NCBI RefSeq assembly: GCF_009914755.1 | Contig: NC_060925.1 | Strand: one strand, 5' to 3' | Origin: the human T2T-CHM13v2.0 reference genome, Homo sapiens | DNA length: 64,000 nt | Part shown: positions 37,419-53,816 of the stretch, piece by piece | Position numbering within the stretch: the stretch's first letter is position 1 | How the letters are laid out: each line of letters opens with the position of its first letter | Position numbers and translations under genes: made by a program | The notes under the pieces: generated by a model | Told to the model about the DNA's origin: nothing | The model's input: the letters and a program-made list of their open reading frames with translations, nothing else | Database searches by the model: none

Positions 37419-40065
<2,647 letters not shown>

Positions 40066-40230
40066 GACCACAGTGGCCAAGATCACAGTGGCCACGGCCA
40101 CGGCCACAGTCATGGTGGCCACGGCCACAGCCACTAATCAGGAGGCCAGGCCACCCTGCCTCTACCCAACCAGGGCCCCGGGGCCTGTTATGTCAAACTG
40201 TCTTGGCTGTGGGGCTAGGGGCTGGGGCCA

Positions 40231-40236
40231 AATAAA
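40231..40236 (+). terminator. S100A9 poly(A) signal AATAAA
   Basis: 165 nt after the stop, followed by a GT/T-rich downstream element. Confidence 0.88.
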
Positions 40237-42359
40237 GTCTCTTCCTCCAAGTCAGTGCTCTGTGTGCTTCTTCCACCTCTTCTCCAACCCTGCCTTCCCA
40301 GGGCTCTGGGCATTAGACAGCCCTGTCCTTATCTGTGACTCAGCCCCCTCATTCAGTATTAACAAAATGAGAAGCAGCAAAACATGGGTCTGTGCTGGGC
40401 CCCTTGGGCTCACCTCCCTGACCATGTCCTCACCTCTGACTTCAGGCCCCACTGTTCAGATCCCAGGCTCCCTGCCCCATCTCAGACACCCTGTCCAGCC
40501 TGTCCAGCCTGACAAATGGCCCTTGTCACTGTACACTGTAGAAAGCAAAAGGGCATATCTCTACCCCTTGATATGCCTGCTACCTCACCAACCAGCCCCA
40601 AGCCTGTCTTCACCCATCACTGTCTACACAGCCCTCTCTCTCTCCTAACAGAATTCTATTCCTCTGAAAGTCTTCCAGAAATGGACCTAGATAGTGCCAT
40701 GTCTGGGGAGGAATACTGGCACCCAGGCAGTGGAAACAAGGACAGATCCGGTGTGTTTACTCTCACACTTTTTCTGGATCCAAGAGAGCAATTGGATCTC
40801 TCTTAACAGACCTGCCACCCTAATCAACGGGAGTGCTCACACAAGTGGGAGTCTGAGAGCTTAGCCCTATGCCCACCCTGGTCTCAACAGAATGGCAGAG
40901 TGAAGAAATGAGCTCCAGTCCGGGCTCTGCAGCTAAAAGACTCCGTGACTACCAGGAGGAGTCTGTGCTCTGGGTCCAGAGAGCCTGGGGGTCTGAAGAT
41001 TCTGATTTTAAGCTTTGAGGGCCAGCTGTCCTTTCTGGTGGGTAGCTGAGAGCTGGGCCCAGCACAAGTATCTGCTTCTCTCTGCAAAGCCTACTACCAG
41101 GCCTGGCCCTAGCTGCCTCAGGGCTACTGCTGCAGCTCCCCCTTCAAGCTGCCCCAGATCCAAGTGCTCAGTTCAGGGACTCCTCTGCCATCTTCCTGCC
41201 CTTTGGCTATAAAGTCCCTTTCCTAGGTTATAACCAGTGGGGTTTGGCCTTCCAAAAACCAGAGTCCAGATCAAGATCCTCTGACCCCTGTCCTTTCAGC
41301 AGAAAGAAGACTCACAGAATTAGGATCTGGGGAAGCTGGGAAGACTAGCAGTCACCTACTCTCCCTTTTCATAAGTGAAGAAACCGAGGTGTAATATGGA
41401 GAAGAGACTAGTCCAAAGTCACACAAATGACAGAGTTGCTCAAAATAATGCAGTACGAAAAGTAGCTTGAATCATATCTGCCCCACTGGCTGCACCTCCC
41501 CAGCCCCTTCCCCAGTGCAGAGCAGGAAGATATAGAGCTGCCAGTGTTGGATTTCAGCCCTCCCCTCACAGCCTGGCTATGGTTGTGCCCCCAACCTGCC
41601 TGTTGCAGACTCCTGCTTTAAGGGCCTGGGGGCTCCGCTCTGGGTGCAGGGTTTTAAGGGCTCCCACTCGAGGGTATGAGGATGTTTCCAGGAACTGTCT
41701 CAGGCTGAGAGCTTAGGCAGCAGAGTCTAGAAGCCCTCCTCAGTCCCTTCTGTGCCTGACTTGGAGACCTGACAGCTGGGGACACTCATTTTCTGACAGC
41801 CCTTCTGCTCCCATGCTCACATCCAGGGAGGAGTCACTGTCTTCACTCCCTTCTGAACACAGCTTGGTAATGAGGAGAGAGAAGCATCCTGGGGATTGGA
41901 GGGCCTTAGACCAGATGCTTCCAGTAGGGTGGTAAGTGCTCCCCCTAGGCCCTCTGCCCACCACTACTTATCACAATGTGCCTAAATATGTTTATGACTC
42001 TGCCTACCCCTCCAGACTGATAACTCCAAGAGAGCAAAGTCCATCTGTTTTTTTTTTCTGATTTATTCTCAGCACCTAGAGTAGTGGCTGCTACATAGAA
42101 GGTTCTCAGCAAATATTGCCTGTATAATGGCCTAAGTTTCTCACGTGTTCTATGCTCTCTTCTCAAGGGATGATGTGGAGAAAAAAAAGCAAGAGGAGAT
42201 CAAAACCTGCAAATGGAAGGCTTCTGCATTAGCATTACAGAATCTCAAACCTGAAGGTAAGGAGCAGCAAGTTGATGGAATCGGAGGGCCCCTCCACCCC
42301 CTGTTCAATCAGACCAATTTGATTTGAAGGAAGAGATTTGTCTTGAAAAAAGTGTGAAA

Positions 42360-52954: not shown

Positions 52955-53050
52955 AACTCTTACTCCCCACGGGCAAGGCTGGGTTTTGGTGAGGGAAAGA
53001 AAAGACCCTCATTGAGGACATTGCTGGGTAAAAAGCCTTCAGAGAGCTAC

Positions 53051-53816
53051 CTACTCTTTGTGGGTGTGGTAATGGGCAGCCTTCAGCGCAATGGCTACCA
53101 GGGATATGAATTCTTGAAAGTCGACCTGTTCATCTTGATTAGCATCCAGGCCTTGGAATATTTCATCAATGACAGCTTTATCTTTGATATTCTAGGAAAA
53201 AAGGACAACAGAGACCTTGAGTTCAGAACCTCCACACAAGACCCTTTCTTAGGCCTCTTATCCCTCAGAGCTCGGGTTGTGAAGGCCCAGGCACATTAAC
53301 TCATTAGCCAACACTGTGTTGGAGAATCCAGTGTAACAAAACAGAGAACACAATGGTCATGAACCACCCTGGAATTAACAAGGCTTGACCTGGAAGGTAC
53401 TCTTCTGCTCACTCATTCAACCCCTCCCGTGCCCTGCCTCTCTCCATTTTACATATGAGGAAACAGACTCAGAGAGAGGAACTGAGTAGAGCCTTAAGTG
53501 AGTTATTGAGAGAGGGAAGCAAAGGACCTCTCCCACAGCAGCGGGGAGAGCATCCTTTGGGAGCTCAAACTGGGGCCAACCCCACCCCAGTCCTTGTCCC
53601 ACCATCCTCTGCCAGGCCTTGCCACTCCCCTCAGTGCAGGGTCATGGGCAAGTTTGCAGTGAGAGGGGCATCACCTACCTTGATGGTGTTTGCAAGCTCC
53701 TTTGTAAGCAGCTGCTTCAGCTCACCCTTAGAGAGGGTGTCAAAATGCCCCTTCCGAACTGAGTATTGGTGGAAGATATTGACAATTCCCTCCAGATGCT
53801 CTTCAAGTTTTGTCAT
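53051..53816 (-). CDS. S100A12: S100 calcium-binding protein A12 (calgranulin C/EN-RAGE): join complement(53679..53816, 53051..53191), 92 aa
   Basis: [46 protein letters not shown]|[46 protein letters not shown]; canonical junctions. Confidence 0.99.

What the first reader, a model, noticed from the sequence alone, without database searches (positions are those of the whole stretch)
40063..40137. Hidden in-frame His/Gly-rich tail immediately after the S100A9 stop codon
Seen: after TAA (40063-65) the same frame continues unbroken for 23 codons, DHSGQDHSGHGHGHSHGGHGHSH, to a second TAA (40135-37); 9 of the 23 residues are His. The stop sits in repeat register: TAA-GAC-CAC-AGT-GGC vs the next unit CAA-GAT-CAC-AGT-GGC, so the human stop looks like a single CAA->TAA change. 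Established: S100A9 tail histidines (His103/His105) complete calprotectin's His6 Mn/Fe/Zn/Ni site, and some other mammals (e.g. cattle, from recall) have long GH-rich S100A9 tails. Inference: the human lineage truncated an ancestral metal-binding tail but kept it intact in the 3'UTR. Readthrough or a stop-loss allele would give a ~138-aa S100A9 with extra metal-chelating or antimicrobial capacity. Even low readthrough could matter because S100A9 is extremely abundant in neutrophils. Caveat: UAA-G is a tight stop context.
Basis: partly seen in the sequence, partly recalled or inferred. Interest (0 to 1): 0.85.

Follow-up and report, generated by a model that had tools for sequence, protein, structure and literature searches.

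The report
Fossil histidine tail behind S100A9 stop
The 69 bases after the human S100A9 stop codon are the untranslated remnant of a histidine- and glycine-rich protein tail that most other mammals still make, and nothing seen here suggests that humans still translate it.

Summary
After the S100A9 stop (TAA, 40063-65) the frame stays open for 23 codons, DHSGQDHSGHGHGHSHGGHGHSH, up to a second TAA at 40135-37.

An open frame means little here. Five of six frames are open, and the chance expectation is 0.33-0.52. Homology is what decides it. All 13 long-tailed orthologs tested align in frame from exon 3 straight through the stop, and 10 of them end exactly at 40134. The last 11 hidden residues are the exact C-terminus of 16 of 120 relatives, and the last 6 of 43 of 120. 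The second TAA is therefore the ancestral stop.

Long HxH-repeat tails occur in monotremes, marsupials and all placental superorders (58 of 100). Three Old World monkey proteins stop where human does, while Aotus keeps a tail. The truncation is therefore catarrhine-wide and not specific to humans.

The intact frame is what neutral decay predicts (P 0.54-0.87). UAA-G is the least leaky stop context (PMC7089771). No paper found describes the fossil or any readthrough.

Verdict: a real evolutionary fossil. Its claims of preservation and readthrough are not.

The parts
39871..40062 (+). S100A9 exon 3 coding part (residues 51-114), including the retained proximal tail with His103 and His105 and the end ...GLGEGTP
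   Evidence: Translation. RefSeq annotation given with the finding. EF-hand Pfam hits. 92% identity to Chlorocebus S100A9.
40063..40065 (+). Present stop codon TAA, followed by G. It is the derived (premature) stop, shared at protein level with Old World monkeys.
   Evidence: Old World monkey proteins of 114 aa end at the same aligned position. 13 of 13 long-tailed orthologs align across it.
40066..40134 (+). Relic of the ancestral distal His/Gly-rich tail, now 3'UTR: 23 in-frame codons, DHSGQDHSGHGHGHSHGGHGHSH
   Evidence: Its last 11 residues are the exact C-terminus of 16 of 120 relatives, its last 6 of 43 of 120, and its last 15 of 3 of 120.
40063..40092 (+). Two tandem 15-nt units (*DHSG / QDHSG), 13 of 15 bases identical. 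The present stop is the first codon of unit 1.
   Evidence: TRF row 40064-40094, period 15, 93% matches. Identity count.
40075..40128 (+). Two 27-nt units (GQDHSGHGH / GHSHGGHGH), 22 of 27 identical. The QDHS stretch looks like a diverged copy of the HSHG repeat.
   Evidence: TRF period-27 rows. Identity count.
40135..40137 (+). Second TAA, at the position of the ancestral stop codon
   Evidence: 10 of 13 ortholog alignments end exactly at 40134. In 5 of them the ortholog's own last residue pairs with the last codon before this TAA.
40231..40236 (+). AATAAA polyadenylation signal, which places the relic well inside the mature 3'UTR
   Evidence: offset 166 from 40066. Sequence. RefSeq transcript end at 40250.

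Best explanation
The 69 bases after the human S100A9 stop are a molecular fossil. The ancestral mammalian S100A9 ended in a longer, disordered tail of HxH repeats (...GHGHSHGGHGHSH-stop). In the stem lineage of catarrhine primates a stop codon arose about 24 codons upstream of the old stop, just after the GLGE motif. It arose within or beside a small lineage-specific tandem duplication. The retained proximal tail, with His103 and His105, still completes the His6 metal site. The distal repeats became 3'UTR. They have stayed open and recognisable because little time has passed at primate mutation rates, because His/Gly/Ser codons almost never mutate to stops, and because the repeat units are multiples of three. 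In humans the stretch most likely acts only as 3'UTR RNA and is translated only at the background error rate of a very tight stop.

Shown here: the sequence, its homology and collinearity with orthologs, the shared stop position at protein level in Old World monkeys, and the neutral expectation. Inferred: the date, the order of duplication and nonsense change, and the absence of meaningful translation.
For: -: sequence and frame.
- 13 of 13 chosen long-tailed orthologs (13 of the 120 held) align in frame 1 from 39871 through the TAA. 10 of 13 end at 40134.
- suffix identity in 16 of 120 proteins (11 aa), 43 of 120 (6 aa) and 3 of 120 (15 aa). The median local score of frame +0 against ortholog ends is 70, against 5-34 for the other five frames.
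- 58 of 100 labelled mammalian S100A9 proteins carry >=3 HxH motifs after the G-L/F-G motif. They come from monotreme, marsupials, Afrotheria, Xenarthra, Laurasiatheria, colugo, tarsier, strepsirrhines, Aotus, pika and some rodents.
- three Old World monkey clusters are 114 aa and gap-free against human to E111, plus three more residues.
- Aotus (119 aa) continues ...GEAPGHGHGHGHGH.
- 1 of 207 single changes makes a stop, against 19 of 576 in the exon-3 coding part. Neutral retention P is 0.54-0.87.
- P(last 15 aa unchanged) is 0.08-0.38 under neutrality.
- PMC7089771 passages rank readthrough UGA>UAG>UAA, rank the +4 base C>U>A>G, and call readthrough of normal stops rare.
- the paralog S100A12 has stops at the 4th and 8th codons after its own stop, so no such fossil exists there.
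Against: - No primate DNA could be fetched. The shared catarrhine stop rests on protein models of equal length, and neither the nonsense event nor neutral decay in other catarrhines was observed directly.
- Ape proteins were not returned by the searches. The human cluster itself was not listed.
- The last 15 hidden residues are identical to three living C-termini. At the oldest and fastest setting that has neutral P of only 0.08, so weak constraint, or homogenisation among the repeats, is not excluded.
- No ribosome-profiling or mass-spectrometry data could be consulted, so absence of translation is an inference.
- The 3'UTR stretch folds somewhat better than shuffles (z -1.80, 9 of 200 shuffles as good).
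Confidence: 0.85

Rival explanations
1. Functional readthrough: a fraction of ribosomes read through the UAA, producing a 138-residue S100A9 whose extra HxH repeats add metal-binding or antimicrobial capacity. Selection keeps the extension open for this reason.
For: - The extension is in frame, would add 5 HxH motifs, and ends at the ancestral stop.
- Its last 15 residues are unchanged relative to three living C-termini.
- HxH motifs with a small middle residue bind zinc and are METTL9 substrates (PMC7873184 abstract and passages).
- S100A9 is very abundant in neutrophils (recalled).
- The downstream RNA is mildly structured (z -1.80).
Against: - UAA followed by G is the least leaky stop context (PMC7089771 passages).
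- The open frame is the neutral expectation. Five of six frames are open there.
- The segment just after the stop (DHSGQDHS) is a diverged duplicate unlike most ortholog tails.
- Rfam finds no element: one hit at E 0.84, far below its gathering score.
- None of the listings from 8 literature searches shows S100A9 readthrough or an extended form in a title or abstract start. For one search that covers only 15 of 32 papers.
- The proteoform list in PMC9866740 has none, though it is a targeted list.
Confidence: 0.05
2. Chance: a GGCCAC-type microsatellite in the 3'UTR happens to be open in the S100A9 frame and happens to read as Gly-His. It has no common descent with ortholog tails.
For: - The stretch is repetitive.
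- Open frames of this length are expected by chance with P 0.33-0.52.
- Five of six frames are open.
- Low-complexity similarity can mislead.
Against: - The alignments are collinear from the conserved EF-hand core through the stop to the end, in 13 of 13 orthologs.
- The irregular 11-residue end GHSHGGHGHSH is the exact C-terminus of 16 of 120 relatives and is followed by a stop in human too.
- The other frames score 5-34 against 70.
- The paralog S100A12 has nothing similar.
Confidence: 0.02
3. The stretch is kept for an RNA-level role in the 3'UTR, such as a structure or a binding site affecting S100A9 mRNA stability or translation. Its coding look is then incidental heritage.
For: GGCCAC and GTGGCC words pair with each other. 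The minimum free energy is -45.3 kcal/mol, z -1.80, with 9 of 200 shuffles folding as well.
Against: The z-score is modest. There is no Rfam family. No comparative data were available to test covariation. Neutrality explains the state of the sequence.
Confidence: 0.08

Closest known systems
Long His/Gly-rich C-terminal tails of non-catarrhine S100A9 (for example Bos 147-156 aa, Sus 188 aa, Canis 184 aa, Suricata 150 aa, Tenrec 130 aa)
   Same: Same gene, same position after the GLGE motif, same HxH-repeat composition, and the same terminal residues and stop position.
   Different: In those species the tail is annotated as coding. In human it lies behind a TAA in the 3'UTR. The first nine hidden codons (DHSGQDHS plus the stop) belong to a small duplication that most orthologs lack. 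No solved structure covers any long tail: PDB S100A9 chains are at most 122 aa, and the bovine query matches only over residues 1-113.
C-terminal extension of sauropsid MRP-126 and S100A12-like calgranulins
   Same: The gecko, tuatara and bird relatives returned also end in ...GHGHGHSH-type repeats (P0106-P0119). PMC5826337 describes MRP-126 as having a disordered C-terminal extension. The repeat tail may therefore predate S100A9 itself.
   Different: Their orthology to S100A9 specifically is unresolved in that paper. Human S100A12 has no tail and no fossil of one.
Programmed stop-codon readthrough genes of mammals (recalled examples: AQP4, MDH1, LDHB, VDR; VDR seen in the listing)
   Same: An in-frame open extension beyond the annotated stop that would add a C-terminal peptide.
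   Different: Those genes have leaky contexts, typically UGA followed by CUAG (recalled), and extensions conserved as protein. Here the stop is UAA-G, the tightest class, and conservation could not be tested.
Relic coding sequence in a 3'UTR after a lineage-specific nonsense change (C-terminal truncation)
   Same: A derived upstream stop, with the former coding sequence still recognisable downstream and ending at the old stop.
   Different: Nothing in kind. The particular interest is that the lost part is a metal-binding repeat of a major innate-immunity protein, and that similar truncations recur in other mammals.

Membership tests
S100A9 orthologous distal tail (coding in other mammals) | Collinear with the ortholog tail, continuing from the conserved core in the same frame | tested here: met
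   13 of 13 orthologs align in frame 1 from 39871 across the stop.
S100A9 orthologous distal tail (coding in other mammals) | Ends at the same terminal residues and stop as orthologs | tested here: met
   10 of 13 alignments end at 40134. The last 11 aa are the exact C-terminus of 16 of 120 proteins. TAA follows at 40135-37.
S100A9 orthologous distal tail (coding in other mammals) | Is translated as part of the protein | tested here: not met
   An in-frame TAA precedes it. RefSeq ends the coding region at 40065. PDB human chains are 113-114 aa apart from tagged or engineered ones.
Programmed stop-codon readthrough | Leaky stop codon and +4 context | tested here: not met
   The stop is UAA followed by G. 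PMC7089771 passages rank UGA>UAG>UAA and C>U>A>G at +4.
Programmed stop-codon readthrough | Stimulatory RNA element downstream of the stop | tested here: inconclusive
   Fold z -1.80, 9 of 200 shuffles as good. No Rfam family reaches threshold.
Programmed stop-codon readthrough | Protein-level conservation of the extension among species that share the stop | not testable with these tools
   No primate genomic or mRNA sequence can be fetched. Only protein models end at the stop.
Programmed stop-codon readthrough | Ribosome footprints or peptides beyond the stop | not testable with these tools
Paper supplements are closed.
Relic coding sequence after a nonsense change | Derived stop shared by a clade, with outgroups reading on | tested here: met
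   At protein level only. Three Old World monkey clusters of 114 aa end at the human position. Aotus, tarsier, strepsirrhines and colugo continue into GH repeats.
Relic coding sequence after a nonsense change | Downstream sequence evolves neutrally | tested here: inconclusive
   Its present state is compatible with neutrality (P 0.54-0.87 for the frame, 0.08-0.38 for the 15-aa end). Rates could not be measured without other catarrhine DNA.

The most novel reading that the evidence does not exclude
The fossil tail is not fully silent. Rare readthrough in neutrophils, which are packed with S100A9, or stop-loss alleles in the population, would yield a 138-residue S100A9. Its five extra HxH motifs would restore the ancestral distal metal-binding, METTL9-methylatable tail and change calprotectin's metal capacity or its oligomerisation. 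A related reading is that the recurrent loss of this tail in catarrhines, three rodent groups and other lineages was adaptive and not neutral.
Probability: 0.05. Interest if true: 0.7.

Novelty: new member of a known kind. Interest (0 to 1): 0.4.

Why it matters
Calprotectin work rests almost entirely on human and mouse proteins. One search shows that both are truncated, atypical forms. Most mammals, including cattle, pig, dog, horse and bats, carry a much longer HxH-repeat tail. No solved structure covers it and I found no functional study of it.

Recognising the human 3'UTR stretch as the fossil of that tail does three things:
- It dates the loss to stem catarrhines.
- It gives a natural, human-derived sequence for testing what the distal tail adds to metal sequestration, METTL9 methylation or aggregation.
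- It says what a stop-loss variant at 40063-65 would produce.

It does not by itself change the understanding of human S100A9 function.

Tried and rejected
1. Open frame as evidence. Rejected: chance P is 0.33-0.52 and five of six frames are open.

2. 'Kept intact' as evidence of selection. Rejected as uninformative: 1 of 207 single changes makes a stop, and neutral retention P is 0.54-0.87.

3. Looking for an older copy of the mRNA as a processed pseudogene, to date the stop. The exon-3 DNA finds only itself in G000. Closed regions are not shown, so this is not proof of absence.

4. Pfam on the 23-residue tail gives 0 families. Rfam on 39871-40300 gives one chance-level mir-939 hit (E 0.84, 19.4 bits against a gathering score of 84).

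5. A cryptic mini-intron that would skip the stop (GT at 40010-11, AG at 40072-73, read off). Rejected by inspection: it is 64 nt long, has no pyrimidine tract, and shifts the frame to the Thr/Val/Ala reading. No tool was run on this.

6. Whether the Bos repeat DQGSH-DQGSH is the same duplication as the human *DHSG-QDHSG. The residue order differs, so I treat them as parallel events. This is unproven.

7. Literature. Nine searches: eight on S100A9 itself and on stop context. In the listings returned, no title or abstract start describes a hidden tail, an S100A9 stop-loss or S100A9 readthrough. One search found 32 papers holding both 'S100A9' and 'readthrough', and I saw the listing of only 15. 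I saw passages through 'find' only, never whole texts, of PMC7213983, PMC7873184, PMC12047837, PMC5222828, PMC12432413, PMC5826337, PMC9866740, PMC7089771 and bioRxiv 10.1101/796219. Supplements are closed. The alignment in Figure 1-figure supplement 1 of PMC7213983 and the per-gene readthrough tables of PMC7089771 could bear on these claims, and I did not see them.

The tail is a low-complexity, presumably disordered repeat, and they would not have added primate DNA.

Rows dropped before the count: 20 of the 120 proteins.
- P0004, an engineered human fragment.
- P0010, a Callithrix fragment.
- P0098, P0101, P0102, P0103 and P0111, which are aberrant or fragmentary models.
- P0106-P0108, P0110 and P0112-P0120, which are sauropsid, bird or other S100 relatives.

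My regex failed on 3 of the 100 kept proteins. P0052 and P0059 (Dasypus) clearly end in long GH tails. P0057 is 104 aa. All three were counted as short.

Divergence dates, Thr113 phosphorylation, neutrophil abundance and the UGA-CUAG motif are recalled and come from no call.

Full report
**What is there.** Reading exon 3 of S100A9 in frame from 39871 gives residues 51-114, ending ...[16 protein letters not shown] follows at 40063-65. Then come 23 further sense codons, DHSGQDHSGHGHGHSHGGHGHSH (40066-40134), and a second TAA at 40135-37. The stretch holds 9 His, 7 Gly and 4 Ser, with five overlapping HxH motifs. It lies inside the annotated 3'UTR, 94 bases upstream of the AATAAA signal at 40231-36. 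Tandem Repeats Finder reports a period-15 repeat at 40064-40094 (2.1 copies, 93% matches), period-27 repeats over 40075-40154, and three GGCCAC units at 40090-40107. Every sequence statement in the finding is correct.

**Is the open frame more than chance?** No. Twenty-three open codons after a stop have probability 0.33 with uniform codons and 0.52 at this 3'UTR's base composition. Five of the six frames across 40066-40134 are open. The mechanical ORF list shows a 212-aa ORF in another + frame and a 52-aa ORF on the minus strand over the same bases. The open frame carries no weight by itself.

**Is it homologous to a coded tail?** Yes, decisively.
- Two protein searches returned 120 S100A9-like proteins. 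One search scored 10 of 10 candidates, with 5 left out as known from samples alone or of untold source. One search found 122 at E<=1e-10 among 845 candidates and listed 120, with 7155 candidates left out before scoring.
- Their C-termini show that most mammalian S100A9 proteins continue beyond the GLGE motif into HxH repeats ending ...GHGHSH.
- I aligned 13 long-tailed orthologs (13 of the 120, chosen across clades) to the window DNA with tblastn. All 13 aligned in frame 1 from 39871 straight through the TAA.
- 10 of the 13 alignments end exactly at 40134. In 5 of them (Hyaena, Suricata, Galeopterus, Nycticebus, Tamandua) the ortholog's own last residue pairs with the last codon before the second TAA.
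- The other three ended at 40113 (Monodelphis), 40128 (Aotus) and 40152 (Bos, which ran on past the second stop).
- The last 4, 6, 8, 11 and 15 hidden residues are the exact C-terminus of 53, 43, 16, 16 and 3 of the 120 proteins.
- The median local score against the last 30 residues of the 120 proteins is 70 for the S100A9 frame and 5-34 for the other five frames.
- The second TAA is therefore at the position of the ancestral stop codon, and 40066-40134 is former coding sequence.
- As a control, the paralog S100A12 in the same window has stops at the 4th and 8th codons after its own stop and nothing His-rich.

**Who has the tail, and when was it cut?** Of 100 mammalian S100A9 proteins that I labelled by taxon (20 of 120 dropped, listed under Tried and rejected), 58 carry at least three HxH motifs after the G-L/F-G motif. 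Two more (Dasypus) were missed by my regex but have long tails.
- Long tails occur in echidna, two marsupials, afrotheres, xenarthrans, carnivores, pangolins, perissodactyls, artiodactyls including whales, bats, eulipotyphlans, pika, colugo, tarsier, strepsirrhines, the platyrrhine Aotus and some rodents (Ctenodactylus, Dipodomys).
- Sauropsid relatives also end in GHGHGHSH-type repeats.
- The three Old World monkey clusters (Piliocolobus, Colobus, Chlorocebus) are 114 aa, like human. Chlorocebus aligns to the human exon-3 product without gaps to E111, and each then has three more residues (human GTP, monkey DAR).
- Aotus (119 aa) reads on...GLGEAPGHGHGHGHGH.
- At protein level the early stop is therefore shared by catarrhines and absent in the one platyrrhine seen. 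That puts it between the platyrrhine/catarrhine and the ape/Old World monkey splits, roughly 25-45 million years ago (dates recalled, not from a call). It is not a human-lineage event.
- Ape proteins and the human cluster itself were not listed by the searches, so the ape state rests on the human reference alone.

**How did the stop arise?** The 27-nt unit 40075-40101 (GQDHSGHGH) is 22 of 27 identical to the next unit, 40102-40128 (GHSHGGHGH). The unusual QDHS stretch therefore looks like a diverged copy of the ordinary HSHG repeat. The 15-nt unit that begins with the stop is in turn a copy of the unit that begins with CAA. Relative to most orthologs the codons TP*DHSGQDHS are an insertion (gaps). 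The reverse order, a duplication of a unit already carrying TAA followed by T-to-C in the untranslated copy, needs the same number of steps. Only primate DNA can decide, and no tool here supplies it.

**Preserved or merely not yet decayed?** In the stretch, 1 of 207 possible single-base changes creates a stop (the CAA at 40078-80). In the exon-3 coding part the figure is 19 of 576. The repeat periods (6, 15, 27) are multiples of three.
- A simple neutral simulation used 0.03-0.08 substitutions per site, an indel-to-substitution ratio of 0.10-0.15, and 20-60% of indels in threes.
- It keeps the frame open with probability 0.54-0.87.
- It leaves the last 15 residues unchanged with probability 0.08-0.38.

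The intact look is what neutrality predicts. Only at the oldest and fastest setting is there a weak hint of excess conservation, and homogenisation among the repeats could produce that too. The parameters are my assumptions.

**Is it translated?** Nothing suggests so.
- The stop is UAA followed by G. Passages of PMC7089771 give readthrough likelihood as UGA>UAG>UAA and C>U>A>G at the +4 base, and call readthrough of normal stops rare. That paper does not mention S100A9.
- The RNA from 40050 to 40160 folds at -45.3 kcal/mol, z -1.80, with 9 of 200 shuffles as good.
- Rfam gives only a chance-level hit. Pfam finds nothing in the 23 residues.
- All S100A9 chains in the PDB are 99-122 aa. A bovine 156-aa query matches them only over its residues 1-113, so no long tail has a solved structure.
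- A top-down saliva proteomics paper lists short, long, oxidised, phosphorylated and glutathionylated S100A9 forms and no C-terminally extended one. Its list is targeted, so this is weak evidence (PMC9866740 passages).

**What the retained and lost parts do.** Passages of PMC12432413 state that the S100A9 tail supplies His103 and His105 to the His6 site, is essential for Mn binding, and is dispensable for high-affinity Zn binding. PMC7213983 states that S100A9 gained two His through a C-terminal extension. Both histidines lie upstream of the catarrhine stop, so the truncation spared the His6 site. The lost distal repeats are HxH motifs with small middle residues. PMC7873184 shows such motifs to be METTL9 substrates, and shows that their methylation lowered zinc affinity in a peptide. 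I infer that in long-tailed species the distal tail adds low-specificity metal binding. I found no experimental study of it.

**Comparison and novelty.** Long S100A9 tails are visible in public databases, and the C-terminal extension is discussed in the literature. PMC5826337 removed tails before building its trees. In the search listings and passages I saw, nobody points out that the human 3'UTR still holds the distal tail in frame, or that the truncation is catarrhine-wide. A relic of coding sequence behind a derived stop is a known kind of event. This is a new, tidy example in a heavily studied immune protein.

**Verdict.** The ancestral-tail origin is supported. 'Human lineage' should read 'catarrhine'. 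The 'kept intact' and readthrough claims are not supported. The CAA-to-TAA origin is plausible but untested. Interest is moderate (0.4). The main value is comparative: human and mouse calprotectin are both truncated outliers, and the fossil offers a ready-made construct for asking what the distal tail does.

Noticed in passing
proteins P0001-P0105; relates to window 40063-40137: The distal GH tail seems to have been lost or cut down repeatedly: catarrhines (3 of 3 clusters plus human), myomorph rodents (11 clusters), squirrels (4), hystricognaths (4), and single models of elephant, Suncus, Pteronotus, Sarcophilus and Prolemur. Phyllostomid bats are reduced to one HxH. Ctenodactylus and Dipodomys keep long tails, which implies at least three separate losses within rodents. 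Many cuts fall right after the GLG(E/K) motif. Some short models may be annotation artefacts.
   Followed up: partly
window 40054-40062 against P0001-P0003: The last three residues differ completely between human (GTP) and Old World monkeys (DAR), in proteins that are 92% identical over the aligned part of exon 3. The new C-terminal end has evolved fast. The human Thr113, a phosphorylation site from recall, is absent in the monkey sequences.
   Followed up: partly
P0027, P0047, P0055 (Bos): Cattle S100A9 carries its own five-residue tandem duplication (DQGSH DQGSH) at about the same place as the human *DHSG QDHSG units, but with a different residue order. This looks like a parallel duplication in a slippage-prone region.
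   Followed up: no
window 52961-53053, minus strand: The S100A12 protein ends ...HYHTHKE. Stops follow at the 4th and 8th codons after its stop, and there is no fossil tail, although the sauropsid 'S100A12-like' relatives end in GH repeats.
   Followed up: yes
window 40010-40648 (+) and 39976-40134 (-): Long mechanical ORFs (212 aa and 52 aa) overlap the repeat in other frames. They read as Thr/Val/Ala or Pro/Arg/Trp runs and are by-products of the GGCCAC composition.
   Followed up: partly
P0009 (Propithecus, 154 aa), P0013 (Chrysochloris, 176 aa), P0038 (Rhynchocyon, 132 aa): Propithecus repeats the whole GPGLGEGG...GH block twice. Chrysochloris and Rhynchocyon models run from the tail into unrelated non-His sequence, which suggests frameshifted or mis-predicted ends.
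   Followed up: no
window 40122-40186, minus strand: A weak Rfam match to the mir-939 precursor (19.4 bits against a gathering score of 84, E 0.84). I take it as chance.
   Followed up: no
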